DNA of 64,000 nucleotides, from assembly GCA_963851225.1 (NCBI GenBank), contig CAWKON010000008.1:56653-120652 (forward strand), written 5' to 3'. The position numbers and the translations under genes are program-made. The notes under the pieces were generated by a model that saw only the letters and a program-made list of their open reading frames with translations, was not told the origin of the DNA and ran no database searches. How positions within the stretch are numbered: the first letter of the stretch is position 1; the number at the start of each line of letters is the position of its first letter. The DNA comes from an uncultured Alphaproteobacteria bacterium (lineage in GTDB: Bacteria; Pseudomonadota; Alphaproteobacteria; Rhizobiales; Beijerinckiaceae). Shown here piece by piece: positions 45,319-64,000 of this stretch.

Positions 45319-46479
45319 TCAGGTTTTCGCGCGCCAGCGTTGCCAGAAGCTGATCTTTTTGTCCGAAAGGTCCGGCGCGCTGACTGCGGGCGCCGGCACG
45401 GCCGCCGGGACAAGTTGCGTTAGATGATATTGCCGCGTGGTAAACCGGATGACGACGCCAATCGCGGCGGCGAGCGGCACCGCAATAAGCAAGCCCACGA
45501 AGCCAAACAGATAGCCGAACGCGGCAATGGCGAACATCACCCAGACAGGGTTGAGCTGGACTCGCGCGGCGATGAGATAGGGAGAAAGCACATAGTCCGC
45601 GATCGCCTGGCCGGCAAAGAAAATCCCGAACACAACCGGAATCATCGTCCAAACTGGCCAGAACTGGAGCACCGCCACGCAAAGCGACAGCACAAGTCCC
45701 GTGAATGACCCGAGATAGGGAATGAAACTAATCAGACCGGCGGCGAGCCCGATCAGAATTCCATGGTTGAGACCAATCAACCGCAGCGCAAGAGCATAAA
45801 AGATGGCGAGGATGAGGCAGATCGTCCCCTGCCCGCGCAGAAATCCGGCGATCGTGTCATCGAGCTCGCCGGTCAGCGCCAAAACGGTCTCACGCTGCGC
45901 CGCGGGAATTGAACGCTCGATCGTAGCGATCAGGCGTTTCCAATCAATGAGCAAATAGATGGTGACAATCGGGGTCACCACCAGAAGGGAGAAAATCGAC
46001 ATCAGCGCCTGGCTGTCCGACCATAACGAGCGCAAAACGCTGGGAATCCAATCGGCGGCCATCGCTGTGAGCTCGCCCGCCGAATGCTCGGCTTCGCTCA
46101 GTTCTTGGCCGATGATCTTGCGCAACCATGGGCGGCTCGGGTCATTGGCGAGGGCTTGTAATTGGCCGATGTACTGGGGAACCTTTTCGATAAAATCCGC
46201 AATCTCCGTGCCAAGGAGAGGGGTGACGAGCACCATCACTCCGGCGACACCAATAATGAACAGTCCGACAATGCCAAGCGTCGCAATGGTGCGGTTCACC
46301 CCAAGCCGTTCGAACCATTCGACAACCGGGTCGAGCAGATAGGCGAGGGCGATCCCGGCCACAAACGGCAGCAGGATTTCGCGCAAGAGCACGACCAACA
46401 TAAGAATGGCCGCCAGCGCCGCAAGCCACAGCACGGAAGGCCGCACCGCGGTCACGGGCTTACATTCTGGCAGTAGCAA
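45319..46479 (-). CDS. AI-2E family transporter (PerM/YhhT-like, UPF0118)
   Basis: 386 aa with ~8 TM helices and AI-2E family conserved blocks (LLPFVAGIALAYLLDP, GFLRGQGTICLILA). Confidence 0.8.
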   Translation of the reverse strand: MLLPECKPVTAVRPSVLWLAALAAILMLVVLLREILLPFVAGIALAYLLDPVVEWFERLGVNRTIATLGIVGLFIIGVAGVMVLVTPLLGTEIADFIEKVPQYIGQLQALANDPSRPWLRKIIGQELSEAEHSAGELTAMAADWIPSVLRSLWSDSQALMSIFSLLVVTPIVTIYLLIDWKRLIATIERSIPAAQRETVLALTGELDDTIAGFLRGQGTICLILAIFYALALRLIGLNHGILIGLAAGLISFIPYLGSFTGLVLSLCVAVLQFWPVWTMIPVVFGIFFAGQAIADYVLSPYLIAARVQLNPVWVMFAIAAFGYLFGFVGLLIAVPLAAAIGVVIRFTTRQYHLTQLVPAAVPAPAVSAPDLSDKKISFWQRWRAKT

Positions 46480-47625: not shown

Positions 47626-48939
47626 ATGACCGATTTTTCTCCGCGTGAGATCGTCTCCGAACTCGACCGTTTCATCGTCGGGCAGAAGGATGCCAAGCGC
47701 GCCGTGGCGATCGCGCTCGCGCAACCGCTGGCGCCGCCTGCGCCTCGAAGGGGCGATGCGCGAGGAGGTGCTGCCGAAGAACATTTTGATGATCGGGCCG
47801 ACCGGCTGCGGCAAGACCGAGATTTCCCGCCGCCTGGCCAAGCTCGCCGGCGCGCCTTTTCTCAAAGTCGAGGCGACGAAATTCACCGAGGTCGGCTATG
47901 TCGGCCGCGATGTCGAGCAGATCGTCCGCGATCTCGTCGAGACCGCGATTACGCATGGTGAAGGAAGAAAAGCGCAAGGCGGTTTCCGCGCGCGCCCAGC
48001 TCGCGGCGGAAGAGCGGGTCCTCGATGCTCTCGTCGGCACCACGGCGTCGGCGTCCACGCGCGACAGCTTCCGCAAGAGGCTGCGGGCGGGCGAACTCGA
48101 CGACAAGGAAATCGAGATCGAGATCGCCCAAGCCTCGCCGTCAATGCCGATGTTCGAATTGCCGAACATGCCGGGCTCGGCGATCGGCGCGATTTCGATC
48201 GGCGATATTTTCGGCAAGGCGCTCGGCAATCGCGCAAAACCGCGCCGCACCACGGTCAAGGATGCCTACGCCCCCTTGATCGTCGAGGAAAGCGACAAGA
48301 TGATCGACCAGGACCAGATCGTTCAGGAGGCGATCCGCGAGGTCGAAAACAATGGAATCGTCTTTCTCGACGAGATCGACAAGATTTGCGCGCGCGAAGG
48401 GCGCGGCGGCGGCGGCGATGTCTCGCGCGAGGGCGTGCAACGCGATCTGCTGCCGCTTGATCGAAGGCACGACGGTCGCGACCAAGCATGGCGCGGTGAA
48501 GACCGATCACATTTTGTTCATCGCGTCGGGCGCCTTCCATGCGTCGAAACCCTCGGACCTCTTGCCCGAATTGCAAGGGCGGCTGCCGATCCGGGTCGAG
48601 CTCTCGCCCTTGAACGAGGACGATTTCCGCCGCATCCTCACCGAAACCGAGGCAAGCCTCATCAAGCAATATGAAGCGCTCCTGCGCACCGAAGGGGTCG
48701 AGCTTTCATTTACGCCCGAAGCGATCAATGCGGTGGCGCGGATCGCGGTGCAGGTCAATTCCTCGGTCGAAAATATCGGCGCGCGGCGGTTGCAGACGGT
48801 GATGGAACGCGTGCTCGACGAGGTGAGCTTTACCGCGTCCGACCGTTTCGGCGAGACGGATCGAAATCGACGCGCGTTCGTCGAGAAGAACATCGGCGAT
48901 CTCGCCAGGAACACCGATCTGAGCCGGTTCATTCTTTGA
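47626..48939 (+). pseudogene. hslU: ATP-dependent protease ATPase subunit HslU, split over 4 frames (>=3 frameshifts)
   Basis: [31 protein letters not shown], then [79 protein letters not shown] and the C-terminal [14 protein letters not shown] are in consecutive ORFs of different frames. The start lies 27 nt after the hslV stop. Confidence 0.85.
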
Positions 48940-49050: not shown

Positions 49051-50089
49051 ATGGCAAAATTTCGTTGAACGGGTTTTTTCCGGCGTGCAGCCGACGGGCA
49101 ATCTGCATCTTGGAAATTATCTCGGCGCGATCACCAAATTCGTCGAGCTGCAAAAGACCCATGATTGCATCTATTGCGTCGTCGATCTGCACGCGATCAC
49201 GCTGCCGCAAAAGCCGGAGGAATTGAAGGCGAGCATCAGGGAAGTCACGGCCGCCTTCATCGCCTGCGGCATCGATCCCAAAAAACATATCGTGTTCAAC
49301 CAGAGCCAGGTTGCCGAACATGCCGAGCTCGCCTGGGTGTTCAATTGCGTGGCGCGCATCGGCTGGCTCAACCGCATGACGCAATTCAAGGAGAAGGCGG
49401 GCAAGGACCGCGAGAACGCCTCCGTCGGGCTTTATGCCTATCCTTGTCTGATGGCCGCCGATATTCTTGTCTATCGCGCGACCCATGTCCCGGTCGGCGA
49501 GGACCAAAAGCAGCATCTCGAACTCGCCCGCGACATCGCGCAGAAATTCAATCTCGATTTTGCCGCCTCGATCGCGGCGCATGGGTCATGGCGAGGCGTT
49601 CTTCCCCTTGCCCGAGCCGCTGATCCAGGGGCCGGCCACGCGAGTGATGAGCTTGCGCGACGGCTCCAAGAAAATGTCGAAGTCGGACCCGTCGGACTAT
49701 TCGCGGATCAATCTTTCCGACGATGCCGACACGATCGCCCAAAAAGTCCGCAAGGCGAAGACCGATCCGGACGCGCTGCCGTCTGAAGTCGAAGGGCTCA
49801 AGCAGCGCCCCGAAGCCGAAAATCTCATCGGCATTTTTGCCGCGCTCAATGGCGAGACGAAAGCAGGATGTGCTTGAGGACTTTCGGCGGCGGCAATTTC
49901 TCGGCCTTCAAATCGGCGCTGGTCGATCTCGCGGTGGCCAAACTCGGCCCGATCGGCGCCGAGATGAAACGCCTCAAGGGCGATCCCGCCTTTATCGACG
50001 GCGTTCTCGCCGATGGCGCGGCGCGCGCCCGCGCGATCGCGGCCAAGAACATGGCGTGTGTGAAGGATATTTTGGGCTTCGTGCGGTAA
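49051..50089 (+). pseudogene. trpS: tryptophan--tRNA ligase TrpS, >=3 frameshifts (one 5 nt after the ATG in an A4 run, others ~49570 and ~49865)
   Basis: ATGGCAAAAT then frame change gives MA(N)[23 protein letters not shown] (HIGH-type motif). KMSKS is present in ORF 49467..49877. The C-terminus is in ORF 49868..50089. Confidence 0.8.
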
Positions 50090-50104
50090 CACGATGCTCC
50101 CGGC

Positions 50105-51881
50105 TCACGCCTTCGCTTCCAGGCCTTCGAGATCGGCGATCATTTCTTCGATCATGTTCAGCCCGATCTGCCAAAAGGCGGGATCGCGCGCGTCGAGCCC
50201 GAAAGGCGCGAGCAACTCGGCATGATGTTTCGTGCCTCCCGCCGAAAGCATGGCGAGATAGCGTTCGGCAAAACCTTCCCGCGCGCCCTGATAGACGCCA
50301 TAGAGCGAATTGACGAGACAATCGCCGAACGCATAGGCGTAGACATAAAAGGGCGAATGGATGAAATGCGGAATATAGGCCCAATAGGTCTCGTAATCGG
50401 CTCCAAGCTCGATCGCGGGCCCGAGGCTTTCGGCCTGCTCGCTCATCCATAGAGCGCAGATCTGCGTCCGCCGTCAGCTCGCCGTTGCGCCGTTCGAGAT
50501 GCAGCTTGCGTTCGAACGAATAAAACGCGATCTGCCGCACCACCGTGTTCAGCATGTCCTCGACCTTGGCGGCGAGCATGGCGCGGCGCTGCGCGACATT
50601 CGCCGTGCGCAGAAGCAGGGCGCGGAAACGTCAGCATTTCGCCGAAGACCGAAGCGGTCTCGGCCAAGGTCAGCGGCGTCGGCGCCATCAGCGCGCCATT
50701 CGGGCCGGCCAGAACCTGATGCACGCCGTGGCCGAGTTCATGCGCGAGCGTCATCACGTCGCGCGGCTTGCCCTGGTAATTCAGCAGCACGTAAGGATGC
50801 GCGGAAGGCACGGTCGGATGCGCGAAGGCGCCCGGCTGCTTGCCTGGCCGCACCGGCGCGTCGATCCAGCGCTCGTCGAAGAAGCGCTTGGCGATCCCCG
50901 CCATTTTCGGCGAGAAAGCGTCATAGGCGTCGAGCACAGTGTCGCGCGCCTCGTCCCAAGGATAGATTTTCGGCGCGACATCCGGGCAGCGGCGCATTGC
51001 GGTCCCAATGCTTGAGCGCCGTCTTGCCGAACCATTTGGCCTTGAGCTTGTAATAGCGGTGCGAGAGGCGCGGATAGGCGGCGCGCACGGCGCCGGCCAG
51101 CGCATCGACGACTTCGCGCTCGACGCGGTTGGCGAGATGCCTTGCGTCCGCCACGTCCTGAAAACCGCGCCAGCGGTCGGAAATCTCCTTGTCCTTCGCC
51201 AGGGTGTTGGTGACAAGGGCGAAAACGTCCGCAGATTTTCCTTCAAGCCCGCGCCGAACGCGATCGCCGCCTTTTCGCGGGTCTTCTCATGCGGGTCCTG
51301 CATCAGATTGAGCACCGGCTCGATCGCCAGCTGCCTCGCCATCGACGTTGAAGCGCAGGCTCGCGATCGTCTCGTCGAACAGCCGGTTCCAGGCGCCGTA
51401 GCCGGTGATCGATTTTTCGTGGAACAATTGCTCGAGCTTATCGTCGAGCTGATAGGGCTTGCCCTTGCGGATGTCTTCGAGCCAGGGCCGGTAATGCTTG
51501 AGCGGCGCCGGCCGCCAGTTTGGTCGCGAGCGCGTCGTCGAGCCGGTTCAGTTCGAGTTCGAAGAACAGAAGATCGGAGGACGCGTCGGTGATTTTTTCC
51601 TGCGTGTCGCCATAGAATTTCATCCGCGCCGGGTCGGTGGTGTCGCCCGAATAGACGAGCCCGGCATAGGACATGATGCGCCCGAGCAGCTCTTCCAGCG
51701 CCTCGTAGCGCTTGATCGCCTCGAGAAGCTCCGCGCCGGAGCCTTTCTTGGCGAGCGCTTCGAGCTTGCCCTTGTAGGCGACGTTGAAACTCTTGCATTC
51801 GGTCCCGGCCTTGGCGAGATCGTCCGCGAAGGCGCGGGACTCCATGGAAGGATAGAGGTCTTCGAGGTTCCACTCGGGCAA
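50105..51881 (-). pseudogene. pepF: oligoendopeptidase F (M3B family), highly fragmented across frames
   Basis: N-terminal block PEWNLEDLYPSMESRAFADDLAKA (ORF 51438..51881). C-terminal block YETYWAYIPHFIHSPFYVYAYAFGDCLVNSLY (ORF 50105..50446). The long 510-aa ORF in between is an out-of-frame Arg-rich read. Confidence 0.6.
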
Positions 51882-52129
51882 TGAGCCAAGATCCGGCCGC
51901 GTGCTTTGGCTTCGCGGCGCTTTTTGGTTTGGGGCGAAACATGCTGAGGGATTTGCTGGTGCTCTTGCGCGTCATGGAACGATCCTATTGTGGGATTGCT
52001 GTCATAGCGAGCAAGGCTCCCGCGAACAACCTTTGCCGCTGGGAATGTTTTTCGACCGGCGGGCGAGGTGTGCTGCATAGCTGGTCCGGATCCAAATGAA
52101 AGCGCGGCTTGCCCCTGTGCAATTCTTCC

Positions 52130-52236
52130 TGTGAAGGTCACGCAGCATAAAAAATTTACCCAATTGGGAGCTGTCTTGCGATCCGGATTGGCGTAATCTT
52201 TGCCGCGTTCCCGCATGGAGGAAGAGGAGGTTAGTC
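52130..52236 (+). promoter_or_regulatory. conserved cassette leader, copy 1: sigma54-like -24/-12 element TGGCGT-N5-TTGCC (GG 52190-91, GC 52202-03) and strong SD GGAGGAAGAGGAGG
   Basis: About 100 nt are near-identical to the leaders at 54290 and 56456 (..GCATAAAAATTTACCCAATTGGGAGCTGTCTTGCGATCCGGATTGGC..). Only this copy has GG-N10-GC spacing. Confidence 0.4.
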
Positions 52237-52734
52237 ATGACGGATGGCCATCAGGATTGCAGCGAGGCAAGGACTTCGCTCCACGGCGAAGCGAAACGCA
52301 AGATTTTACGAGGGCTTGTCCTAAAGGCTGTGGCCGCGAGTTTTGCGGCCTGGGCGATGACCTTGCCGGCCCTGGCCCAGCTGGCTGCGCCCGTCTATGT
52401 CACGGGGTCTGCCGCTGCTACAATTACGGTCACTTTCACGGTGGCTCCTCCTACGGGGTCCACGGTTTCTTGCAGCCTGGCGCTGCTCAGCAGTGATCCG
52501 CGCGCGCCGTCCGACAGCGCCTCCGTTACCTCGACGGTGAGCGGCTCGACCGCGACATGCACAGTAACGGTGAACTATAGATGGCGCCTTACGAGCACGA
52601 GCCTCTCCACGGATACGATGACGATTGGTTATTCGGTCCAGGGGCCGGTTGCGACCAGCTCGGGACTTGTCAACATCATTCCGATGCCCGCCAACGGCAC
52701 GCATTTGACTCAGAGTTTCGCGGTTACCCAGTAA
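52237..52734 (+). CDS. cassette copy 1, small secreted beta-rich protein (165 aa; signal peptide ...AMTLPALA|QLAAP), unknown family
   Basis: The ORF is preceded by the SD. The first ~95 codons are nearly identical at the nucleotide level to those of 54412.. and 56576.. . The mature part is Thr/Ser/Val-rich (TITVTFTVAPP...CTVTVNYRWRLTSTS). Confidence 0.8.
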   Translation: MTDGHQDCSEARTSLHGEAKRKILRGLVLKAVAASFAAWAMTLPALAQLAAPVYVTGSAAATITVTFTVAPPTGSTVSCSLALLSSDPRAPSDSASVTSTVSGSTATCTVTVNYRWRLTSTSLSTDTMTIGYSVQGPVATSSGLVNIIPMPANGTHLTQSFAVTQ

Positions 52735-52788
52735 TCGGGCATCAAAGACCTATCCCAGGGTTCCAGTCGGGAGAGGGAGCTAACTTCC

Positions 52789-53916
52789 ATGCATTATTTG
52801 CGCGCTGCTGTCGCCCTGGTGGCGGCTATGACATTCTCAATGACGGCCCTTGGCGAGAGGCGTACGGCCATTGCGGTATTCACAGGGCCGAGCGGCGGCG
52901 TCGCGCCGCCGGACGGTGCACCGCCCTGTGTCTCGACGTTCTGCACATCGATACCAACAAGATACAAAAACACGTTCATTATCGGCATAACGGAGTACGA
53001 GACGACCTACCCTTGCTTTTACATAGATCATGGCCAGTGGACTCCGGGAACCAACATCCAACCTATTGACAAAGGAACGCCTGCTGGGACGGTAGACGTT
53101 TCGGAATTGGCTATCGTAGGTCCAACACCGCCCGGATGCACTGCTGCAGGGGGGCCGTATTTGTATGCTCCGCTTTATTTTGATTGGACCCTTCACAAGA
53201 ATTTAACCTGGTATTTAGGTTACGGCCCAACGGCTTTCTTTCAATCGAATTGGTATACAAAGGACGGTTGGAATTTGCCGTACTCGTTCCAGATTACCGT
53301 GCCGGTAGTGCGTCCAATTGGCGAGACAATCTCGTTTAAGGGTTTTACGGGGGTTATCGGTAACGGCTTAGTAGGCCAATGGCTACAGACACTCACGCCG
53401 CCGACCGACGATCCGAGTTTCGATTTTACTGGAGAGACTGTCCAAGAGGATTTATCCGCTTCTATTGGCAACTGCCTATCTCCACCCGCCAAACTGGTCC
53501 CCCTAGCAGGCACGACAAGGCCCCCTAGTACTTTCCCGGTAGAGAATGGCCCGCCCGGCCAATGGGTTGACGGGGTCGGCTTCGGTGACGAAGCTGATTC
53601 AGCATGTGCCGTTCTATATAATTTCTGCTATCAGCCATCGGGTTGTTTGATGACCAGAACGCAAACGACGGCCATAAAGTCCGACGCCGATTTCGCTGAT
53701 GCCTTTACCAAGTATGGCGGCGTCAACCGCTTGACGGCAGGTCTGCTTGGCAGAATCCTACCAGTCGCCCTGCCATTCCAAAGCCCACAAGGTTTCGGCA
53801 GGATTTTCTCAAGTCGACAATCCACCGAATCCCTAAGCAGTCAATCAGTCAAGAGCAACTTAACTCTAATCTCCACGTCCGTTTGCAAAAATCTTGTTCT
53901 GACGAACTGCAAATAG
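52789..53916 (+). CDS. cassette copy 1, large secreted Cys-rich protein (375 aa; signal MHYLRAAVALVAAMTFSMTALG), unknown family
   Basis: Shares with copies 2 and 3 the signal peptide and the motifs IGITEY, VRPIGET, PPTDDPxFDFTGET and NGPPG. The rest has diverged. Confidence 0.8.
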   Translation: MHYLRAAVALVAAMTFSMTALGERRTAIAVFTGPSGGVAPPDGAPPCVSTFCTSIPTRYKNTFIIGITEYETTYPCFYIDHGQWTPGTNIQPIDKGTPAGTVDVSELAIVGPTPPGCTAAGGPYLYAPLYFDWTLHKNLTWYLGYGPTAFFQSNWYTKDGWNLPYSFQITVPVVRPIGETISFKGFTGVIGNGLVGQWLQTLTPPTDDPSFDFTGETVQEDLSASIGNCLSPPAKLVPLAGTTRPPSTFPVENGPPGQWVDGVGFGDEADSACAVLYNFCYQPSGCLMTRTQTTAIKSDADFADAFTKYGGVNRLTAGLLGRILPVALPFQSPQGFGRIFSSRQSTESLSSQSVKSNLTLISTSVCKNLVLTNCK

Positions 53917-54289
53917 ATGTTGATTACAATTGTTAGAGTCTGTCCGGAAACATCCAGCCGGATTGCAAGGTTTCCGGAGCATGAGGCGAATTGAGGCGAG
54001 GCGCGAGCAATCTGAGTGCCCTCCCGATTGAGGATCTTCCATTCATGGCCTGATCTTGGCCTGCAATGAATGGCGGAATCCGACCTGATGACGTTGTCCC
54101 CAAGTTTGATCCAGGCGCGACTACAATACCGTGCGGCCACGTTCTCGTATCGGCAGGCTGAGGTCAGCCCGCCCATGCCGCCCAATTCTCACCGCAACGG
54201 GCCAAGGCGCTACGCTGCTCGATGGCTCCGCGCCCTGGCCCGTTGCTATGTCTGGACCCAAATGTAAGCCCGTCCTGCCCCTGTGCGGA

Positions 54290-54411
54290 TCTTCCTGCGA
54301 AGCTCTAGGTGGTCACACAGCATAAAAATTTACCCAATTGGGAGCTGTCTTGCGATCCGGATTGGCATAACCTCCTCCGTGTTCCCCGCATGGAGGAAGA
54401 GGAGGTTAGTC
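54290..54411 (+). promoter_or_regulatory. conserved cassette leader, copy 2, with SD-sequestering hairpin (AACCTCCTC 54369-77 pairs with GAGGAGGTT 54399-407)
   Basis: A 9-bp perfect stem occludes the Shine-Dalgarno sequence 6 nt upstream of the ATG. The anti-SD arm is absent from copy 1. Confidence 0.45.
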
Positions 54412-54909
54412 ATGTCGGATGGCCATCAGGATTGCAGCGAGGCAAGGTCTTCGCTCCACGGCGAAGCCAAACGCTATTTTTCACGCGGGCTTATCCTAAG
54501 AGCCTTAGCCGCGAGTTTCGCGGCCTGTGCGATGACCTTGCCGGCCCTGGCCCAGCTGGCTGCGCCCGTGTATGTCACGGGGTCTGCCGCCGCTACAATT
54601 ACGGTCACTTTCACGGTGGCTCCTCCTGCAGCGTCCACCGTTTCTTGTGGCTTGTCGTTGATCAGCAACGATCCACGTACCCCGGCCGACAGCTCAACCG
54701 TAACCGTCACGGTGACGGGTTCGACCGCGATCTGTACAGTAACGGTGAACTATAGATGGCGCCTTACGAGCACGAGCGTTTCCACGGATACGATGACGAT
54801 TGCTTATTCGGTTCAGGGGCCGGTTCAGAACAGCTTTGGCCTTGTCAACATCATTCCAATGCCCGCCAACGGCACGCATTTAAGTCAGAGTTTCGGTGTC
54901 ACGCAGTAA
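54412..54909 (+). CDS. cassette copy 2, small secreted protein (165 aa), paralogue of 52237..52734
   Basis: MSDGHQDCSEARSSLHGEAKRYFSRGLILRALAASFAACAMTLPALAQLAAPVYVTGSAAATITVTFTVAPP... Confidence 0.8.
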   Translation: MSDGHQDCSEARSSLHGEAKRYFSRGLILRALAASFAACAMTLPALAQLAAPVYVTGSAAATITVTFTVAPPAASTVSCGLSLISNDPRTPADSSTVTVTVTGSTAICTVTVNYRWRLTSTSVSTDTMTIAYSVQGPVQNSFGLVNIIPMPANGTHLSQSFGVTQ

Positions 54910-54948
54910 TCAGGCGTCGAGGGGCAATCCGAGGTTGAGGTAACTTCC

Positions 54949-56040
54949 ATGCATTATTTGCGCGCTGCTGTCGCCCTGGTGGCGGCCGTGATGTTTTCAC
55001 TGAGTGCCGCTGGCCAGGCGCCTCCGGCCGCTAAAATCGGGTCGACCTCCGGCAAGGCGGTGGCCATCCGGGCATTGTCCCCGAACCCAGTGGGCGGCAT
55101 CAATCCTTTGGCCGGCACCATGGTGAAACGACAAACGGAAACGTTCATAGCGGGCATCGCGGAGATCAATCCTGATACCTGCGCATTTATAAATTCTGGC
55201 TCGTGGACCTTCACCCTGAATCCAACGTTTGGGAAGACCACCTGGAGAGTTGAATCTGGCACGTCAGCAACGGGTCAACCATGTGCTGGCCATACATATA
55301 ATTTTGCTAAAATATTTTACACGTGGACCGCTCATAACAATCACACCACAACGCCAAATCAAGGACCAACTGATATTTTTAACGCGACTTGGACGACCCC
55401 TGACGGGATGTTTAACGATCCGTTCGTGTTCAATATTATTACGAATCCAGTGCGTCCAAAGGGCGAGACCACTGCATTGCAAAGTTGGCAAGACTCCTTT
55501 GGTATATGGAAGGTAACGCTCGTATGCTGCGCCCCGCCAGATGATGACGATGCGGCGTTCGATTTCACGGGCGAAACGGTGAACGAGGTTTTCCTAAGTG
55601 ACCAAAACTCGTGTCCAGGTAACGCATCCGTTAACCCGAGCATGGGAACAGTAAATAATGGACCACCAGGTAGTTTTCATGACAAAATTGGGTTTGATCC
55701 GTGCGTCGTACATTATGCTCGATGTTTAATGAAAGCTGGTTGTGGGTTCGTAGTTAAGCAGCAGATGGAAATAAATTCTCCAGCAGATCCAGCTAATACA
55801 TTTTTTTCTTATGGAACTGCGCCAAATACTTTGAGTTCAAGAGTTGAGGGTGGTATTATCGTCAATCTTGCCGGCAAGTTGACCTCTAGGAGCGGGGTAG
55901 GCCAAATAACATCTCAAAGGAGCACGCCCCTAAGCCCGTTCACTCCGGCGCACCATGACTTTCCGAGCGACAAAGCTTCGTGTTTTGCGAAAGCCCAGGA
56001 TCTTCAGTTCTACCTAGCGATGCTAGATAAACGATGCTGA
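54949..56040 (+). CDS. cassette copy 2, large secreted Cys-rich protein (363 aa), paralogue of 52789..53916
   Basis: The signal peptide MHYLRAAVALVAAVMFSLSAAG and the motifs VRPKGET, PPDDDDAAFDFTGET and NGPPG are conserved. Otherwise it is <35% identical by eye. Confidence 0.8.
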   Translation: MHYLRAAVALVAAVMFSLSAAGQAPPAAKIGSTSGKAVAIRALSPNPVGGINPLAGTMVKRQTETFIAGIAEINPDTCAFINSGSWTFTLNPTFGKTTWRVESGTSATGQPCAGHTYNFAKIFYTWTAHNNHTTTPNQGPTDIFNATWTTPDGMFNDPFVFNIITNPVRPKGETTALQSWQDSFGIWKVTLVCCAPPDDDDAAFDFTGETVNEVFLSDQNSCPGNASVNPSMGTVNNGPPGSFHDKIGFDPCVVHYARCLMKAGCGFVVKQQMEINSPADPANTFFSYGTAPNTLSSRVEGGIIVNLAGKLTSRSGVGQITSQRSTPLSPFTPAHHDFPSDKASCFAKAQDLQFYLAMLDKRC

Positions 56041-56099
56041 GTCCAAACGGTCAGACGGGTAGCGGGAGCGTCACGGGGGAAAATCTTAAGCGATGGTGG

Positions 56100-56455
56100 A
56101 CGGAACCGCTTTAGCGGGATCTCCCCACGACCCCTGTTGGAAGGAACAGCCTTCCGAAAGGATGGCGGCCATGTCCTGGATTACAAAATAAACTGCCAGA
56201 TAAAGCTTTGGTATGAACCTGCCGCACGGGCGCTTGATCGCCGGCCGGCCAGAGCAACGCGCCATTCATTTCAAGGCGGCGATTTGGAGCCAGACCCGCC
56301 TCGCCGATCATGTTTGACATCCAATGAATGGCGGAATCTGGCCTCGGCCGAAGCGCCATCGGACATGTGCGAGCGCCGGTCTTACAGATTGAACGAGAGA
56401 TTACCGTGTGCTGTCTCGTAAGGTTTTGGCCGACAATCGTATCAAAATGCGGGCC
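56100..56455 (+). repeat. ~350-bp conserved non-coding repeat 3' of cassette copy 2 (copies also at 58380..58733, partial at ~54040-54085)
   Basis: Shared blocks CCCCACGACCC, TCCGAAAGGAT and TTGACATCCAATGAATGGCGGAATCTGGCCTCGGCCGAAGCGCCATCGGACATGTGCGAGCGCCGGTCTTACAGATTGAACGAGAG, ending ..CAATCGTATCAAAATG. Confidence 0.6.
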
Positions 56456-56575
56456 TTCCTGCGAAGATCTAGGTAGTGAAGCAGCATAAAAATTTACCCA
56501 ATTGGGAGCTGTCTTGCGATCCGGATTGGCATAACCTCCTCCGTGTTCCCCGCATGGAGGAAGAGGAGGTTAGTC
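56456..56575 (+). promoter_or_regulatory. conserved cassette leader, copy 3, with SD-sequestering hairpin (56533-41 with 56563-71)
   Basis: Identical to the copy-2 leader over ~115 nt. Confidence 0.45.
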
Positions 56576-57073
56576 ATGTCGGATGGCCATCAGGATTGCA
56601 GCGAGGCAAGGTCTTCGCTCCACGGCGAAGCCAAACGCTATTTTTCACGCGGGCTTATCCTAAGAGCCTTAGCCGCGAGTTTCGCGGCCTGTGCGATGAC
56701 CTTGCCGGCCCTGGCCCAGCTGGCTGCGCCCGTGTATGTCACGGGGTCTGCCGCCGCTACAATTACGGTCACTTTCACGGTGGCTCCTCCTACGGGGTCC
56801 ACTGTTTCTTGTAACCTGGCGTTGGTCAGTAATGATCCGCGCGCGCCGTCCGACAGCGCCTCCGTTACCTCGACGGTGAGCGGCTCGACCGCGACCTGTG
56901 TAGTAACGCTGAACTACAGATGGCGCCTCACGAGCACAAGCCTCTCCACGGATTTGATGACGATTGGTTATTCGGTCCAGGGGCCGGTTGCGACCAGCTC
57001 GGGACTTGTCAACATCATTCCAATGCCGGCCGACGGTACGCATTTGAGTCAGAGTTTCGGGGTCACCCAGTAA
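56576..57073 (+). CDS. cassette copy 3, small secreted protein (165 aa)
   Basis: The N-terminal half is identical to copy 2. The mature region is closer to copy 1 (APPTGSTVSC...NYRWRLTSTSLSTD). Confidence 0.8.
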   Translation: MSDGHQDCSEARSSLHGEAKRYFSRGLILRALAASFAACAMTLPALAQLAAPVYVTGSAAATITVTFTVAPPTGSTVSCNLALVSNDPRAPSDSASVTSTVSGSTATCVVTLNYRWRLTSTSLSTDLMTIGYSVQGPVATSSGLVNIIPMPADGTHLSQSFGVTQ

Positions 57074-57125
57074 TCGGGCGTCGAGTACTAATCCGAGGTT
57101 TCTAATCGGGACGGAGCTAACTTCC

Positions 57126-58349
57126 ATGCATTATTTGCGCGCTGCTGTCGCTCTCGTGGCGGCTATGACGTTCTCTTCAATGGCTTTTGGCGAGACGCGT
57201 CCGGCGATTGCGATATTCTCGGCGCCGGATGGCCCTAGGGCGCTAGCCATCGAACCCTCAAACACCCCCAGTTCGGCCACCTACTCCACAAGCATTGCAA
57301 GATATACCCCCGTGCCCACGTTGATTATCGGCATAACCGAGTACGATCCATTGAACTGCAAATGGCTAGATTTGGCAAGTGGACCGACCCCAACTCGTCT
57401 CTTAAACCTGTATTCAAAGGGAAGCCTGCTGGGCCGGTAGGCTACCAGAGAACTTTTGCAGGCACATTACCGAGCACCACGCCTTGCCCTGGACTGGCAG
57501 TTACTTATCTCGCAATAGATTTTTCGTGGATGGCTCATTACAATCAAACCGGATTAGGATCAGGCGTTGCTCCACCTCCATGTAAAACAACAAATCCAGT
57601 GTGCCCAACGGCTGTTTTTCAAGGAGAATGGACCACGAAGGACAAAATGTTTGATATAGTGTACAGCTTCCAAGTTAGCGTGGATGTGGTGCGTCCAATT
57701 GGCGAGACGACTAACTGGCAGGGTTGGTCGGGATGGTTCGGTAGCGGCCTCGTGGGCCAATGGGCGGCGACGCTCAAGCCTCCAACCACAGATCCGGATT
57801 TCGATTTTACAGGGGAGACGACACAAGAAAGATTTTCTAATAAAAAAGACACCTGCGCTCTTAAAACGACTACAAAAAATAACATTCCACTGGGAAACGT
57901 AACAAGTCCCGGCAAGAACTTTCCGGTAATGGATGGCCCGCCTGGTAAGTATATTGACGGAGTTGAGCGTCGGTGGTGACGATCCGCAATCAGTATGTTC
58001 CGTACTCTGTCATTTCATCACAAATCCAGCTGGTTGCTTTCTCTCAGTACAGCAGCAGATGAGCATTATGTCCCCGGCCGATACGGCCTTTGTCAAATAT
58101 CCCGCCGTTAATATCCTCGAAGCTGGCAGCATCGGCTCAATCACCTCCGCGTTCCTAGTCCTAAAGCCCTCACAAGGCCACGCCACCGTAACATCAAATC
58201 GCTATCCCATTTCTGGCCCACGCCCTGAACCAATGAGCCATCCAAGCGGCGATCTCGACCTGAGCAATTGTACTAGTATTAGGATTCCTCTTCCTACTAA
58301 ACCTGTTACTTCTAGAAACTTTAATTTTCCCCAAGATTGTAGTAAATAG
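57126..58349 (+). pseudogene. cassette copy 3, large secreted Cys-rich protein, reading frame broken twice (~57400, ~57960)
   Basis: ORFs 57126..57440, 57362..57979 and 57933..58349 are consecutive. Conserved motifs include IGITEY, VRPIGETTNWQGW, PPTTDPDFDFTGET and DGPPGKYIDGV. Confidence 0.7.
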
Positions 58350-58379
58350 ATGTAGCTTGCATTTTATAGAGTAGGGGAG

Positions 58380-58733
58380 CGCACAGGGGGATAGCCGGTT
58401 TTCCCACGACCCTTGAGTTGGATGCGCTGAATATCCGAAAGGATATCGGCCACGCCCAGGATTACAAAAATGCGGCCAGAGAAAGCTTCGGTCTAATCAT
58501 GCCGGGCGGGGGCGTGATTGCCGGCCCGCCAGCGCAGCGCACCATTCATCACGAGCCAACGAGTCTGGTAAGCGGGCCCGCCTCGCCGATCATGCTTGAC
58601 ATCCAACGAATGGCGGAATCCGGCCTCGGCCGAATCGCCATCGGACATGTGCGAACGCCGGTCTTACAGATTGAACGAGAGACCGCCGTCTGATGCCTTG
58701 TAAGGTTTTTGCCCCGATCGTACCAAAATGTTT
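58380..58733 (+). repeat. 3' cassette repeat, copy after cassette 3, abutting the IS5-family element
   Basis: ~85% identical to 56100..56455 with small indels. Its last bases CGATCGTACCAAAATG coincide with the start of the IS terminal inverted repeat. Confidence 0.6.
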
Positions 58734-59905
58734 CGAGACCTGGGTGCGGGGGTTTCTTATTTTGTTGTTTGACGCGGCTTTGGCGATTTGCCGGGTTGGA
58801 AGCACTGCGGCTGGAAAATTCTGGTTGAGCTGCGGCCGCCCCGCTTCTCGCGGGCTTTGCCGCGGAGCGCTTTTGCCGCCGCTCAGGCGGTTTGCAGCCG
58901 GAGGGAGCGCTTCATATTGTAAGCGATGGCGGCAAGACGCACTTGCAATCTGGCTTTGGCCAAGCCCATCCACCGCATCGCGCGAAAGTGATAACTGCGC
59001 TTCCAGGTGCCAAAAATTTTTTCAATGCGCGGCCGGATGGGCTTGAGCGGGCGATTATGTTCTTTGAGCGCTTCGGCCTTGAGCCAGCGATGGCCCTTGC
59101 GCAAGAGCTTCGCGGTCCCGCCCTTCGCTTCGATCGCCGCCCCGGCCGAGAGCGCATCATAGGCCTTGCCGCCATAGACCTCGCCCGGATCATCGGGAAT
59201 GATCGAAGGAGCAATGTTGACATCGGCCTCGTTGGCGGGCGCCGTCTCAACCTCGCGGATGATTCCCGTGTCCTTACCGGCGGCAATATGCGCCTTATAG
59301 CCATGCATGGGCGCGCGGCTCTTGTGCTTGGCCCAGGCGGCTTCGTGATCGCCCTTGGACGCCGGGCCAATCACCGCCGCATCGATCAGCGCGCCTTTGC
59401 GGACAGCGGCGCCTTTGGCTTCGAGATCGCGCGCGATTGCTTCAAACAAGCTCTTGTCGAGATCCTGCGCTAAAAGCAGGCGGCGGAAGCGCACAAAGGC
59501 GGTGCGCCCGGGGGGGTCTTCCTCGCGGGCAAAGCCGCAAAAGCGGCGGAAGCTCGCGCGGTCCGCGAGCGCTTCTGCCAGCATCACATCGGAAAGATCA
59601 TACCAGCTTGCGATGAGCAGCGCCTTGAACATCGAAAACGGCGGCCAAGCCTTTTCGCCCATTGCCGGAGCATAAAGCCCGGTCAAGGTGCGGCCCGCGG
59701 GCTCCCAATCGATCAAGGTCAAAAGCGCATCAAGGCTCGTTGGCCGCACAGCCCTTGCGCCGAAACGAAAACTCTCCTGCCCGATCTGCCGCAGCGCCAT
59801 GATCACCTCCAATCTCATTCGATGAAATGGAATCATAGACCGCAGTCCGCGACAAGCATTCGCAGAAACTTGCGCACAGGTCTCGAAACATTTCGGTACG
59901 ATTGG
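58722..59905 (-). mobile_element. IS5-family insertion sequence (~1.18 kb) with ~30-bp terminal inverted repeats
   Basis: Inverted repeats ATCGTACCAAAATGTTTCGAGACCTGGGTGCG (58722..) and, as reverse complement, CAATCGTACCGAAATGTTTCGAGACCTGTGCGC (..59905). A single transposase gene lies inside. Confidence 0.7.
58883..59836 (-). CDS. IS5-family DDE transposase (317 aa)
   Basis: MIPFHRMRLEVIMALRQIG...LIDWEPAGRTL...WPPFSMFKALLIASWYDLSDVMLAEAL...RFCGF and C-terminal DDE region. The start is taken at MIPFHR; the longer ORF reads through the inverted repeat. Confidence 0.8.
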   Translation of the reverse strand: MIPFHRMRLEVIMALRQIGQESFRFGARAVRPTSLDALLTLIDWEPAGRTLTGLYAPAMGEKAWPPFSMFKALLIASWYDLSDVMLAEALADRASFRRFCGFAREEDPPGRTAFVRFRRLLLAQDLDKSLFEAIARDLEAKGAAVRKGALIDAAVIGPASKGDHEAAWAKHKSRAPMHGYKAHIAAGKDTGIIREVETAPANEADVNIAPSIIPDDPGEVYGGKAYDALSAGAAIEAKGGTAKLLRKGHRWLKAEALKEHNRPLKPIRPRIEKIFGTWKRSYHFRAMRWMGLAKARLQVRLAAIAYNMKRSLRLQTA

Positions 59906-60431
59906 CGAAAAGCGGCGGCGGCGCGCTGCTGGCGGCGTTTGATGCGCGAACGTGTGCCCAGTGTAAGATTGGCACGAATGAGCGTGCCGGAGAAGTGCCG
60001 AGGCCAAGCCCAGCGTTTGATACCGGCCGGTTTTCAAAAATGGAAAACTTTTGCACCTGAATTCTGCACCGAGAAAGTCTTTAAAAATCAAACGCCGATT
60101 TTTGGTGCAATAATCTTGCAGACTGCGAGAAAACTCACCCACGCGAGCGGCAATTGATGGATTTCAGCCGATTTCGGCGGTTCTCGTCCATCACAGGCTC
60201 GCCGAGGCGCAAAAATTTGGTCAAGACGAACCACTTCTCGGCAAAATCCTAGTTTTCACACGGTCTGCTTGAATTTTGCACCAAATGAAACGCGTAACGC
60301 GTTTGACGCGCGTCGTCGCCGCGAGCCTTTGCAAGAAGGAAAATTCTAGCCGCGTGGACTCGCTCCAGGATTTATGGCCTTGCGTCCCGATGTAGGTAGC
60401 ACCAAATGAGGTTGACGCTACAGGGAGTCAA

Positions 60432-63758: not shown

Positions 63759-64000
63759 GCATGGCTGGGGCACTTCAAAAAAGATTTTCTCACGGTTCGA
63801 GAGGCCCAGAACGTCCTTGCCCATCTTGATCCAAGTCTGCATACAGGTCCGCTCAATGATGTGGCAGACGAAAACTTTCGCAAGGAGATAGAAAAGTTCC
63901 AGGAGAATAATAATATTCCAGTGGACGGATACATGGGTAGCCCACTTACCTATTCTAAACTGAGGGAGGCGTATCCCAATTACCACGAGTAGAATTAGCC

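What the first reader, a model, noticed from the sequence alone, without database searches (positions are those of the whole stretch)
52180..56575. Alternative regulation of cassette copies: sigma54-like box in copy 1 versus Shine-Dalgarno-sequestering hairpin in copies 2 and 3
In copies 2 and 3, the segment AACCTCCTC (54369-77 and 56533-41) is perfectly complementary to GAGGAGGTT, which contains the SD 6 nt before the ATG. This predicts a 9-bp stem that masks ribosome binding (thermosensor- or riboregulator-like). In copy 1 the anti-SD arm is replaced by AATCTTTGCC. That creates TGGCGT-N5-TTGCC with exact GG-N10-GC spacing of a sigma54 -24/-12 promoter, positioned ~12 nt upstream of a plausible start and 35 nt before the ATG. 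Identical leaders otherwise suggest only one copy may be transcriptionally or translationally on under a given condition.
Basis: partly seen in the sequence, partly recalled or inferred. Interest (0 to 1): 0.6.

Follow-up and report, generated by a model that had tools for sequence, protein, structure and literature searches.

The report
Ribosome-site hairpin in duplicated operon leaders
Two of three tandem copies of an uncharacterised secreted-protein operon have a very stable hairpin-forming repeat over their ribosome-binding site, but the proposed sigma-54 promoter in the third copy is a chance match and nothing shows a real regulatory switch between the copies.

Summary
The sequence facts are correct. 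Copies 2 and 3 carry TAACCTCCTC, a perfect 10-bp complement of GAGGAGGTTA (Shine-Dalgarno plus spacer). Copy 1 has TAATCTTTGC there, which gives TGGCGT-N5-TTGCC.

The hairpin is far more stable than shuffled controls (z about -5). However, copies 2 and 3 are identical over about 250 nt through gene conversion, so this is one allele, not two observations. The 4-bp extension that makes the helix perfect is absent from most orthologous leaders and shows no covariation. It lies in a 21-nt island that diverges about as fast as synonymous sites in the gene.

It is not a thermosensor: the SD is predicted to stay closed up to 70 C.

The sigma-54 box is indistinguishable from chance. It scores 8/12, like 134 other sites in the window (139 expected). 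It is missing from every ortholog, including the direct ortholog of copy 1. No enhancer-binding protein was found in the window.

Whether the anti-SD arm is transcribed is unknown. It coincides with the -10 position of a CTTG-N17 promoter-like element conserved across the family.

The most likely reading is a lineage-specific, quantitative dampening of translation of the downstream duplicates. It is nearly as likely to have no effect. The finding is ordinary and of low interest.

The parts
52237..52734 (+). Small gene, copy 1 (165 aa; long N-region and signal peptide, then a 7-strand beta-sandwich)
   Evidence: 61 homologs, all unnamed; AF2 model pLDDT 75.
54412..54909 (+). Small gene, copy 2
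   Evidence: dN/dS 0.3 against copy 1.
56576..57073 (+). Small gene, copy 3. It is a chimera: copy-2-like up to about 56755 and copy-1-like from about 56792.
52789..53916 (+). Large gene, copy 1 (375 aa; signal peptide and three Ig-like beta-sandwich domains; fast-evolving)
   Evidence: AF2 pLDDT 85; only generic Ig-like fold matches.
54949..56040 (+). Large gene, copy 2 (363 aa; 36% identical to copy 1)
57126..58349 (+). Large gene, copy 3, split into three overlapping ORFs (57126-57440, 57362-57979, 57933-58349). It is either a pseudogene or carries assembly frameshifts.
54368..54377 (+). Anti-SD arm TAACCTCCTC, copy 2. It occupies the -10 position of the family's CTTG-N17 promoter-like element.
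56532..56541 (+). Anti-SD arm TAACCTCCTC, copy 3. This is the same allele as copy 2, spread by gene conversion.
52194..52203 (+). Degenerate arm TAATCTTTGC, copy 1 (three G.U pairs and one mismatch against the SD arm)
54399..54408 (+). SD arm GAGGAGGTTA, copy 2. The same string is at 52224-52233 in copy 1 and 56563-56572 in copy 3.
52189..52204 (+). Judged a chance match.
52193..52213 (+). The 21-nt island that holds all 7 leader differences between copy 1 and copies 2/3 (= 54367-54388). Flanking leader sequence is identical apart from one extra A in copy 1's A-run near -90.
   Evidence: dS between the copies is 0.30.
52165..52180 (+). TGGGAGCTGTCTTGCG, shared by all three copies (also at 54339-54354 and 56503-56518). 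It contains the family-wide conserved CTTG (a -35-like element) and also fits minimal sigma-54 spacing.
52181..52188 (+). Perfect palindrome ATCCGGAT (also at 54355-54362 and 56519-56526). It is the 5' side of the predicted outer stem. L002 has ATTCGAAT, a symmetric double change.
52159..52168 (+). Perfect 10-bp palindrome CCCAATTGGG (also at 54333-54342 and 56497-56506)
54347..54591 (+). Gene-conversion tract, 100% identical to 56511-56755. It covers the leader and the first ~180 nt of the small gene.

Best explanation
The three leaders belong to three tandem paralogous copies of a conserved two-gene operon in a Methylocella-like alphaproteobacterial MAG. The operon encodes a small secreted beta-sandwich protein and a larger secreted protein with three Ig-like domains.

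The leaders are almost identical because of constraint and gene conversion. The exception is a 21-nt island that diverges at about the gene's synonymous rate. In type-A leaders (the window's own leader type, shared by its closest homologs), the sequence TAACCT just 5' of that island is complementary to AGGTTA at the ribosome-binding site.

In one allele, the island extends this 6-bp complement to a perfect 10-bp anti-SD helix. That allele is present in copy 2 and was copied into copy 3. In copy 1 the same island gives a weak helix rich in G.U pairs and, by coincidence, a GG-N10-GC string.

Inferred consequence: any transcript that contains the arm would have the RBS of copies 2 and 3 locked shut, independently of temperature. 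Such transcripts could be initiated upstream of the arm, or could read through from the preceding cassette. Copy 1 stays accessible. The downstream duplicates would therefore be translationally dampened relative to the ancestral first copy.

There is no sigma-54 switch. All three copies share the same promoter-proximal DNA.

Shown: the sequences, the predicted energetics, the conversion tract, the lack of conservation and the chance level of the sigma-54 match. Inferred: that the arm is transcribed and that translation differs between copies.
For: Hairpin stability. The copy 2/3 leader folds at -40.3 kcal/mol (z = -5.0), against -26.9 (z = -1.45) for copy 1. Arm:SD duplex energies are -15.4 (copies 2/3) and -4.4 kcal/mol (copy 1). 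The probability that the SD is unpaired is 0.012 for copies 2/3 and 0.42-0.82 for copy 1 at 37 C, for either upstream 5' end tested. Complementarity to the SD beats shuffled upstream sequence at p = 0.003.

Core complement. The 6-bp core TAACCT:AGGTTA is kept in the 11 type-A leaders (60 of 65 cells paired). Type-B leaders, a second leader type in more distant homologs, have GAAACC upstream and GGTTTC at the RBS.

Position in the array. Every copy that sits first, next to the M3-peptidase gene, has a weak arm. Five of the six (window copy 1, L037, L001, L033/L003 and L032_695) score -3.5 to -5.8 kcal/mol, and L002 scores -8.5. The only other downstream copy available, L032_2868, has AACCTCTTCC (-11.5). 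Its upstream flank matches the window's copy-2/3 spacer at 86.6%.

Read-through. No canonical intrinsic terminator was found between the cassettes, so read-through transcripts could carry the arm.

All copies still in use. The small genes of all copies are under purifying selection (dN/dS 0.25-0.4). This fits dampening rather than dead copies.
Against: Little independent support for the helix. Copies 2 and 3 are one allele. The 4-bp extension is unpaired in many type-A orthologs (8, 3 and 4 of 11 sequences at three of its four positions). There are no compensatory double changes, and the covariation score is no better than column shuffles. Leader folding z-scores are about 0 in most homologs. 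Anti-SD complementarity is not significant in 25 of the 29 leaders tested.

Chance is not excluded. The island diverges at about the gene's synonymous rate: 7 differences in 21 nt, against a dS of 0.30 for the gene. A perfect 4-mer could therefore arise by chance in one of about 12 sampled lineages, roughly 5% by my estimate.

The arm may not be transcribed. A family-wide conserved CTTG is followed, 16-18 nt later, by good -10-like hexamers in several diverged lineages:
- L008: TTGATC-N17-TATTAT
- type B: TTGATT-N17-TAGAGT
- L026: CTTGCA-N17-CTATTT
- L033: CTTGCG-N17-CTAATT
This puts the window's arm extension exactly at the -10 hexamer (CTTGCG-N17-CTCCTC). The transcription start would then be about 7 nt downstream of the arm, and the predicted SD accessibility of copies 1 and 2 would be the same (0.57 against 0.66).

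No transcription start data exist for this organism.
Confidence: 0.45

Rival explanations
1. No regulatory consequence. The arm lies in non-transcribed promoter DNA, covering the spacer and -10 region of the family's CTTG-N17 sigma-70-type promoter. The differences between copies are neutral drift in an unconstrained island, possibly with a template-switch event. The perfect inverted repeat is an accident, later spread to copy 3 by gene conversion.
For: - A conserved CTTG is followed, 16-18 nt later, by TA-containing hexamers in at least five diverged lineages, at the position homologous to the arm extension. The alphaproteobacterial sigma-70 consensus is CTTGAC-N17-CTATAT (PMC2873474).
- Palindromes flank the -35-like element: CCCAATTGGG and ATCCGGAT. 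L002 carries a symmetric double change in the second (ATTCGAAT). This looks like operator DNA rather than mRNA.
- The island diverges at about the synonymous rate.
- There is no covariation, and the extension is not conserved.
- Perfect 10-bp inverted repeats are not rare in this window.
- Template switching is known to create perfect hairpins in one step (PMC8794818).
Against: - In all three window copies the putative -10 (CTCCTC, CTTTGC) lacks the key A and T, so this promoter would be very weak. Yet the genes are under purifying selection.
- The putative spacer (GCATAACCT) is more conserved than the putative -10, which is the opposite of what a plain sigma-70 promoter would show.
- The distance from CTTG to the deeply conserved CGGATTTCCC motif varies from 12 to 34 nt among homologs.
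- Read-through transcripts would still contain the arm.
Confidence: 0.35
2. All three copies share a sigma-54-type promoter, TGGGAG-N5-TTGCG (52165-52180, 54339-54354, 56503-56518). It would start transcription at about the G of GGCATAACC, placing the anti-SD arm at the very 5' end of the mRNA. The copies would then differ only in the strength of a 5'-terminal hairpin over the SD.
For: - The GG-N10-GC spacing is exact.
- GG and TTGC are kept while the spacer varies in 9 type-A orthologs.
- The predicted start would explain why GCATAACCT is conserved and complementary to AGGTTAGTC.
Against: - It scores only 8/12, which is chance level.
- L037 has CTTGAG, so the essential -12 C is lost.
- L034 and L038, type-B leaders and all distant homologs lack the geometry, while CTTG itself is conserved as a -35-like element.
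- No enhancer-binding protein was found in the window.
Confidence: 0.1
3. Copy 1 is driven by its own sigma-54 promoter (TGGCGT-N5-TTGCC). Copies 2/3 are controlled by a thermosensor-like or riboregulator-like SD hairpin, so only one copy is on under a given condition.
For: - The GG-N10-GC spacing is exact, and the box lies 34 nt from the ATG.
- The hairpin is real and specific to copies 2/3.
Against: - The match is at chance level: 5 sites against 3.9 expected, and 134 against 139 by consensus scoring.
- It is absent from all orthologs, including the direct ortholog L037.
- The G in TGGCGT is derived and moves away from the consensus.
- No enhancer-binding protein was found. Sigma-54 promoters require one without exception (PMC4641369).
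- The hairpin does not melt below 70 C.
- Copies 2 and 3 are under purifying selection like copy 1.
Confidence: 0.04
4. A DNA-level element. The inverted repeat acts as a protein-binding site or a cruciform or slippage hotspot, for example one that promotes recombination between cassettes, rather than as an RNA structure.
For: - The repeat lies inside a gene-conversion tract.
- It sits in a region rich in palindromes.
Against: - The arms are 21 nt apart, which is unlike typical operators.
- The conversion breakpoint (56755-56792) is about 200 nt away from the repeat.
- No recombinase is associated with the cassettes. The nearest transposase (58883-60142) is an IS5-type insertion beyond the array.
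Confidence: 0.05

Closest known systems
cis-repressing SD-sequestering leader hairpins that need a trans factor to open (for example the rpoS leader opened by DsrA/RprA/ArcZ, or engineered crRNA/taRNA riboregulators); named from established knowledge, not tested here
   Same: An upstream pyrimidine-rich segment pairs with the Shine-Dalgarno sequence and occludes ribosome binding. The helix is stable enough that it would not open spontaneously at growth temperature.
   Different: - No trans-activator (sRNA or protein) has been identified.
- It is not known whether the arm is transcribed.
- The helix is not conserved among orthologs and shows no covariation.
- It is present in one paralog allele only.
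RNA thermometers (ROSE, fourU)
   Same: The SD is paired with an upstream segment in the 5' leader.
   Different: Thermometers use short, imperfect helices that melt at 30-45 C. FourU has a Tm of 41 C, and one stabilising mutation raises it to 53.5 C and locks the gene off (PMC2887971). Here the helix is a perfect 10-bp, G+C-rich stem that is still predicted closed at 70 C. There was no Rfam match of any kind in the region. Rfam includes ROSE and FourU models; that is from my own knowledge.
Sigma-54 (-24/-12) promoters, consensus TGGCAC-N5-TTGC
   Same: Copy 1 has GG and GC at the exact spacing.
   Different: - The score is no better than 134 other sites in 64 kb.
- It is not conserved in any ortholog.
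- No enhancer-binding protein was found.
- The remaining consensus positions are poor (TGGCGT, and C instead of A/T after TTGC).
Hairpins created or perfected by replication template switching (quasi-palindrome correction)
   Same: All four arm differences between copy 1 and copy 2 turn G.U or G.A pairs into Watson-Crick pairs, giving an exact reverse complement of the other arm. That clustered signature is the one described in PMC8794818.
   Different: The change can also be reached stepwise. L002 (AATCTGCTCC) is only two substitutions from the perfect arm, and L032_2868 is one substitution away. A single template-switch event is therefore possible but not required.
Alphaproteobacterial sigma-70 promoters (CTTGAC-N17-CTATAT)
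   Same: A family-wide conserved CTTG is followed, 16-18 nt later, by a TA-containing hexamer in several homologs (consensus from PMC2873474).
   Different: In the window the -10 position reads CTCCTC or CTTTGC, which are very poor matches. The spacer is more conserved than the -10.

Membership tests
Sigma-54-dependent promoter (copy 1 box, 52189-52204) | GG at -24 and GC at -12 with exact 10-nt separation | tested here: met
   TGGCGTAATCTTTGCC.
Sigma-54-dependent promoter (copy 1 box, 52189-52204) | Match to the extended consensus clearly above genomic background | tested here: not met
   It matches 8 of 12 positions. The window holds 134 sites with GG/GC and at least 8/12 matches, against 139 +/- 12 in random sequence. 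TGGC-N7-TTGC occurs 5 times against 3.9 expected.
Sigma-54-dependent promoter (copy 1 box, 52189-52204) | Conservation of the -24/-12 elements in orthologous promoters | tested here: not met
   L037, the direct ortholog, has TGG-N10-TTGC. L002, L001, L032_695, L033 and L003 lack TTGC or GG at this position.
Sigma-54-dependent promoter (copy 1 box, 52189-52204) | A cognate enhancer-binding protein (AAA+ with GAFTGA) and an upstream activator site | tested here: inconclusive
   No GAFTGA, ESELFGH or RpoN-box motif was found in six frames. Pfam scans of 25 ORFs, including 10 of the 12 that are at least 430 aa, gave no Sigma54_activat hit. An enhancer-binding protein could be encoded outside the 64-kb window.
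Sigma-54-dependent promoter (copy 1 box, 52189-52204) | rpoN-dependent transcription start about 12 nt downstream of the GC | not testable with these tools
   This needs 5'-end mapping in rpoN+ and rpoN- backgrounds.
RNA thermometer | The SD-masking helix melts in the physiological temperature range | tested here: not met
   The predicted probability that the SD is unpaired is 0.005 at 25 C, 0.012 at 37 C, 0.017 at 42 C and 0.13 at 70 C.
RNA thermometer | Match to a described thermometer family (ROSE, fourU and others) | tested here: not met
   No Rfam match at gathering score or at E <= 1 over 51950-58900.
cis-acting SD-sequestering leader hairpin (translational attenuator) | An anti-SD segment complementary to the SD, more stable than chance | tested here: met
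   Copies 2/3: 10-bp perfect helix, z = -5.0, duplex p = 0.003. Copy 1: not met (z = -1.45, p = 0.56).
cis-acting SD-sequestering leader hairpin (translational attenuator) | The anti-SD arm lies within the transcript | not testable with these tools
   No transcription start data exist. Promoter-like elements permit a start either upstream or downstream of the arm.
cis-acting SD-sequestering leader hairpin (translational attenuator) | Conservation or covariation of the helix among orthologs | tested here: not met
   There are no compensatory double changes. The extension pairs are broken in 8, 3 and 4 of 11 sequences at three of the four positions. Only the 6-bp core is kept. Family-wide anti-SD complementarity is not significant.
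Alphaproteobacterial sigma-70-type promoter overlapping the arm | A -35 CTTG and a -10 hexamer 16-18 nt downstream, conserved in position | tested here: inconclusive
   CTTG is conserved family-wide. Good -10 hexamers occur in L008, L009, L005, type B, L026 and L033/L003. The window copies have CTCCTC or CTTTGC.

The most novel reading that the evidence does not exclude
An expression-site / reserve-cassette arrangement in a free-living alphaproteobacterium. The first copy of the operon, next to the peptidase gene, would be the translationally open copy. Downstream duplicates would be kept translationally closed by a hard-wired SD hairpin and would act mainly as donors and recipients for gene conversion. 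That would diversify the fast-evolving secreted Ig-like protein.

The evidence does not exclude this. Copy 3 is a conversion chimera. The large proteins are only 36% identical between copies. In both tandem arrays seen (the window and L032), the first copy has a weak arm and the downstream copy a strong one.
Probability: 0.07. Interest if true: 0.6.

Novelty: new member of a known kind. Interest (0 to 1): 0.22.

Why it matters
If the arm is transcribed, this would be a natural example of a duplicated operon whose extra copies are dampened at the translational level. The cause would be a few substitutions in an otherwise homogenised leader, which is a simple route to dosage control after tandem duplication.

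It would also be a possible case of a hairpin perfected by template switching.

As it stands, the case mainly shows why a GG-N10-GC string and a perfect inverted repeat need background and ortholog checks before being read as regulation. The operon itself may be of more interest than the leader difference: a conserved pair of unannotated secreted beta-sandwich proteins, found in Methylocella-like bacteria from peat and soil.

Tried and rejected
- Thermosensor. Rejected by the temperature series.
- Known RNA family. No Rfam match at gathering score or at E <= 1.
- Sigma-54 box in copy 1. Rejected on background frequency and ortholog comparison.
- Enhancer-binding protein or rpoN in the window. 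Motif scans and Pfam scans found none.
- A family-wide conserved SD-sequestering structure. RNAalifold and pair counting on 11 type-A leaders showed no covariation. Folding z-scores for 27 leaders and the anti-SD duplex test on 29 leaders gave no general signal. Only window copy 2, L005 and L008 reached p <= 0.02.
- Using a 9-nt indel upstream (CTCTAGGTG) as a marker of the paralog lineage. Abandoned, because first-position orthologs L001, L033 and L003 also carry it.
- Intrinsic terminators between cassettes. None convincing were found.
- Function of the two proteins. There were no Pfam hits. AF2 models gave only generic Ig-like or beta-sandwich Foldseek matches.
- Source contig look-up for the window protein. 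Not on record.
- An upstream out-of-frame ATG (54390). It is not conserved (ATC or ACG in L033 and L032), so a uORF was dismissed.
- Sigma-70 scan with the E. coli consensus. Only intragenic hits came up.

Full report
WHAT IS THERE

The region holds three tandem units with a period of about 2.17 kb. Each unit has two genes.
- A small gene of 165 aa, with ATG at 52237, 54412 and 56576.
- A larger gene 52-54 nt downstream: 52789-53916 (375 aa) and 54949-56040 (363 aa). In unit 3 it is broken into three overlapping ORFs, 57126-58349.

A fragment of a fourth unit (58577-58713, 91% identical to 56295-56431) is followed by an IS5-type transposase on the minus strand at 58883-60142.

Neither protein has a Pfam match. 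AlphaFold models show two things.
- The small protein has a long disordered N-region and signal peptide, then a 7-strand beta-sandwich (pLDDT 75).
- The large protein has a signal peptide and three Ig-like beta-sandwich domains (pLDDT 85).
- Foldseek against the PDB returned only generic Ig-like matches.

The gene pair is conserved as a two-gene unit in about 25 loci. These come from Methylocella-like alphaproteobacterial MAGs and from peat and soil metagenomes, and all the products are unnamed. The closest relatives (L001, L002, L003, L033, L032, L037) share the window's upstream neighbour, a divergently oriented M3-family peptidase gene at 50443-51975. L032 also carries a tandem array.

CHECKING THE OBSERVATION

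Over the roughly 160 nt from the A-run near -90 to about +60, the three leaders are identical, with two exceptions. One is a 21-nt island (52193-52213 in copy 1). The other is a single A/T difference at +4. In the island, copy 1 reads GTAATCTTTGCCGCGTT-CCC and copies 2/3 read ATAACCTCCTCCGTGTTCCCC.

The perfect complement in copies 2/3 is 10 bp: TAACCTCCTC at 54368-54377 pairs with GAGGAGGTTA at 54399-54408. RNAfold adds outer stems, so AUCCGG pairs with UCGGAU at codons 2-3.
- The 76-nt leader of copies 2/3 folds at -40.3 kcal/mol, z = -5.0.
- Copy 1 folds at -26.9 kcal/mol, z = -1.45.

The isolated arm:SD duplex is -15.4 kcal/mol in copies 2/3 and -4.4 in copy 1. Copy 1's arm is not replaced. 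It differs by four substitutions. In copies 2/3 those four positions form Watson-Crick pairs where copy 1 has three G.U pairs and one G.A mismatch.

THE TWO HAIRPIN COPIES ARE ONE ALLELE

Copies 2 and 3 are 100% identical from about 54347 to 54600. Among sites that distinguish copies 1 and 2, copy 3 matches copy 2 at 24 consecutive sites (56531-56755). From 56792 onward it mostly matches copy 1. Copy 3 is therefore a gene-conversion chimera, and 'copies 2 and 3 both have the hairpin' counts as a single observation.

THE SIGMA-54 BOX

Three background counts show that the match is at chance level.
- TGGC-N7-TTGC occurs 5 times in the window against 3.9 expected.
- The looser TGG-N8-TTGC occurs 17 times against 10.7 expected.
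- Scored against TGGCACG-N4-TTGCW with GG and GC required, the copy 1 box reaches 8/12. So do 134 sites in the window, against 139 +/- 12 in composition-matched random sequence.

The box is not conserved.
- The direct ortholog of copy 1 (L037, same flank) has a 5-nt deletion and reads TGG-N10-TTGC.
- L002, L001, L032_695, L033 and L003 have GCTCC, ACGCC, ACGCG or AATTC where copy 1 has TTGCC.
- Several of them have TAAC or TAGC instead of TGGC.
- The G in TGGCGT is unique to copy 1 and moves away from the TGGCAC consensus.

No enhancer-binding protein signature is present. There was no GAFTGA, ESELFGH or RpoN-box motif in any frame. There was no Sigma54_activat hit in Pfam scans of 25 ORFs, including 10 of the 12 ORFs of at least 430 aa. 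Sigma-54 promoters require such an activator (PMC4641369).

A second string with sigma-54 spacing, TGGGAGCTGTCTTGC, is shared by all three copies (52165, 54339, 56503). It is kept in nine type-A orthologs. It is equally weak (8/12), loses its -12 C in L037, and is absent from more distant homologs.

IS THE HAIRPIN A CONSERVED REGULATORY ELEMENT?

'Type A' here means the window's own leader type, shared by its closest homologs. 'Type B' is a second leader type in more distant homologs. In the 11 distinct type-A leaders, three results stand out.
- The 6-bp core UAACCU:AGGUUA is kept (60 of 65 cells paired).
- The four extension pairs that make the helix perfect are often broken: 8, 3 and 4 of 11 sequences are unpaired at three of the four positions.
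- There is not one compensatory double change, and the covariation score is no better than column shuffles.

Leader folding z-scores are -4.8 for copy 2, -2.2 for L002 and -1.9 for L032_695. They are about 0 for the rest of the family.

I also tested complementarity between the SD region and the upstream 100 nt against 300 dinucleotide shuffles. Only copy 2 (p = 0.003), L005 (0.010) and L008 (0.017) reached significance. L032_2868 was marginal (0.066) and 25 of 29 leaders were not significant.

The island holding the extension differs at 7 of 21 positions between copies 1 and 2, about the neutral rate for this gene (dS = 0.30). The flanking leader shows no substitutions. A perfect 4-nt extension arising by chance in one of about a dozen sampled lineages is therefore not excluded. 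I estimate roughly 5% for this.

Perfect 10-bp inverted repeats with loops of 3-40 nt are themselves not rare in this window: 19 k-mer hits against about 5 expected.

One pattern mildly favours function. Every copy in first position, next to the peptidase gene, has a weak arm. Five of the six lineages (window copy 1, L037, L001, L033/L003 and L032_695) score -3.5 to -5.8 kcal/mol, and L002 scores -8.5. The only other downstream copy available is L032_2868, whose upstream spacer is 86.6% identical to the window's copy 2/3 spacer. It has AACCTCTTCC, which scores -11.5 kcal/mol.

NOT A THERMOSENSOR

With the arm included, the predicted probability that the SD of copies 2/3 is unpaired is:
- 0.005 at 25 C
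- 0.012 at 37 C
- 0.017 at 42 C
- 0.13 at 70 C

For copy 1 it is 0.42-0.82 at all temperatures. For comparison, the fourU thermometer melts at 41.1 C. A single mismatch-closing mutation raises that to 53.5 C and gives a repressed phenotype (PMC2887971). No Rfam family matches the region, even at E <= 1.

IS THE ARM IN THE mRNA?

This is the key unknown. A CTTG motif is conserved across the whole family at -57 to -72 from the ATG. In several diverged lineages a good -10-like hexamer follows 16-18 nt downstream:
- L008: TTGATC-N17-TATTAT
- L009: TTGATC-N17-TATTTT
- L005: TTGATT-N16-CATAGT
- type B: TTGATT-N17-TAGAGT
- L026: CTTGCA-N17-CTATTT
- L033/L003: CTTGCG-N17-CTAATT

This fits the alphaproteobacterial sigma-70 consensus CTTGAC-N17-CTATAT (PMC2873474). 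In the window the homologous position reads CTTGCG-N17-CTCCTC in copies 2/3 and CTTGCG-N17-CTTTGC in copy 1. The anti-SD extension thus coincides with the putative -10 hexamer. Transcription from this promoter would start about 7 nt downstream of the arm. In that case the SD accessibilities of copies 1 and 2 are predicted to be equal, 0.57 against 0.66.

Several points argue against this simple reading.
- The window's -10 candidates lack the critical A and T.
- The putative spacer (GCATAACCT, and the palindrome ATCCGGAT) is more conserved than the -10.
- The small genes of all copies are under purifying selection (dN/dS 0.25-0.4).
- No canonical terminator separates the cassettes, so read-through transcripts could carry the arm into copies 2 and 3.

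CONCLUSION

The hairpin is real in the sequence, strong and specific to one paralog allele. It is not conserved, not thermolabile and not demonstrably transcribed. The sigma-54 box is a chance match.

My best explanation (confidence 0.45) is that the downstream duplicates are translationally dampened by a hard-wired SD-occluding helix in any transcript that includes the arm, while copy 1 stays open. The main rival (0.35) is that the arm is promoter DNA, and the inverted repeat is a neutral accident later spread by gene conversion.

The clustered, pairing-perfecting substitutions are compatible with a template-switch origin (PMC8794818). Stepwise paths through L002-like or L032-like intermediates are equally possible.

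CAVEATS

The window appears to come from a metagenome-assembled genome. Its proteins sit on a single 178-kb NCBI/ENA contig. Several neighbouring genes are split: 47645-48939 and 49085-50313. Single-base indels and the exact tandem structure should therefore be confirmed.

All energetics are predictions.

Noticed in passing
window 56531-56792 (and 54347-54600): Copy 3 is a gene-conversion chimera. At 24 consecutive informative sites it equals copy 2 (leader plus the first ~180 nt of the small gene). From 56792 on it is mostly copy-1-like. Copies 2 and 3 are 100% identical over about 250 nt.
   Followed up: yes
window 57126-58349: The large gene of copy 3 is split into three overlapping ORFs in different frames (57126-57440, 57362-57979, 57933-58349). 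It is either a pseudogene or carries assembly frameshifts.
   Followed up: partly
window 58577-58713 and 58883-60142 (-): A 137-nt repeat of the spacer upstream of copy 3 (91% identical to 56295-56431) marks the start of a truncated fourth unit. It is followed by an IS5-type transposase (DUF772 plus DDE_Tnp_1). The array may have been cut by the insertion.
   Followed up: partly
window 46199-46213 (-): This is the best sigma-54 consensus match in the window, TGGCACGGAGATTGC(G), at 11/12. It lies inside the 5' part of an AI-2E family transporter gene (45319-46479, minus strand). A second 11/12 site is at 10820 (+).
   Followed up: no
window 52181-52188, 54355-54362, 56519-56526; L002 about 5946-5953: A perfect 8-bp palindrome, ATCCGGAT, lies directly after the conserved CTTGCG. 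L002 has ATTCGAAT, a symmetric double change that keeps the palindrome. L034 and L038 have AATC-N-GATT. It looks like a dimeric protein-binding site.
   Followed up: partly
window 52159-52168, 54333-54342, 56497-56506: A perfect 10-bp palindrome, CCCAATTGGG, follows an A/T-rich run (AAAAATTTA) just upstream of the CTTG element. It is partly conserved in type-A orthologs.
   Followed up: partly
about -45 to -30 from the ATG in most loci (e.g. L033 1385-1400, L015, L017, L018); window 54377-54392 is diverged: The motif CGGATTTCCCGCAT(C/G)GA is the most deeply conserved non-coding element of the whole family. Its distance to the upstream CTTG varies from 12 to 34 nt. The motif GTC immediately before the ATG is also near-universal. 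Function unknown.
   Followed up: partly
window 52789-53916, 54949-56040; composition 53001-54000, 55001-56000, 57001-58000: The large proteins are only 36% identical between copies 1 and 2, and 60% or less to any homolog. The small proteins are 82-87% identical. The large genes have a lower G+C content (50-52% against about 59%; GC3 0.46-0.56). This suggests fast or diversifying evolution of the Ig-like protein.
   Followed up: partly
window 56041-56180; L026 6661-6798; L006 4747-4881; L036 3317-3451: About 140 nt just after the large gene's stop codon is conserved (72-80%) even in distant loci. It has no Rfam match and no canonical terminator. It may be a 3' UTR element or an atypical terminator.
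   Followed up: no
window 54194-54246: An 11-bp perfect inverted repeat, GCAACGGGCCA ... TGGCCCGTTGC (loop 31), lies between cassette 1 and the copy 2 leader. It has no U-tract.
   Followed up: no
window 47645-48939 and 49085-50313: Two housekeeping genes appear split into overlapping ORFs: an AAA/ClpB-like gene and a class I Trp/Tyr tRNA synthetase. These are frameshifts, from either pseudogenisation or assembly errors in a MAG.
   Followed up: no
window 23150-24643 (+), 33770-35083 (-), 40672-40744 (-), 40897-40967 (+): Further mobile-element genes are present: a Mu-type transposase (rve) and a DDE_5 transposase. Two divergently oriented tRNA genes lie about 11 kb upstream of the array.
   Followed up: no
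L032 695-2868: A second genome carries a tandem array of the same operon. Its first small gene is truncated to 80 aa. Its second copy has the stronger anti-SD arm, AACCTCTTCC.
   Followed up: partly
window 63628-63695 and 63835-63902: A 68-nt direct repeat (79% identical, 207 nt apart) lies in a low-G+C (48%) stretch at the end of the window.
   Followed up: no
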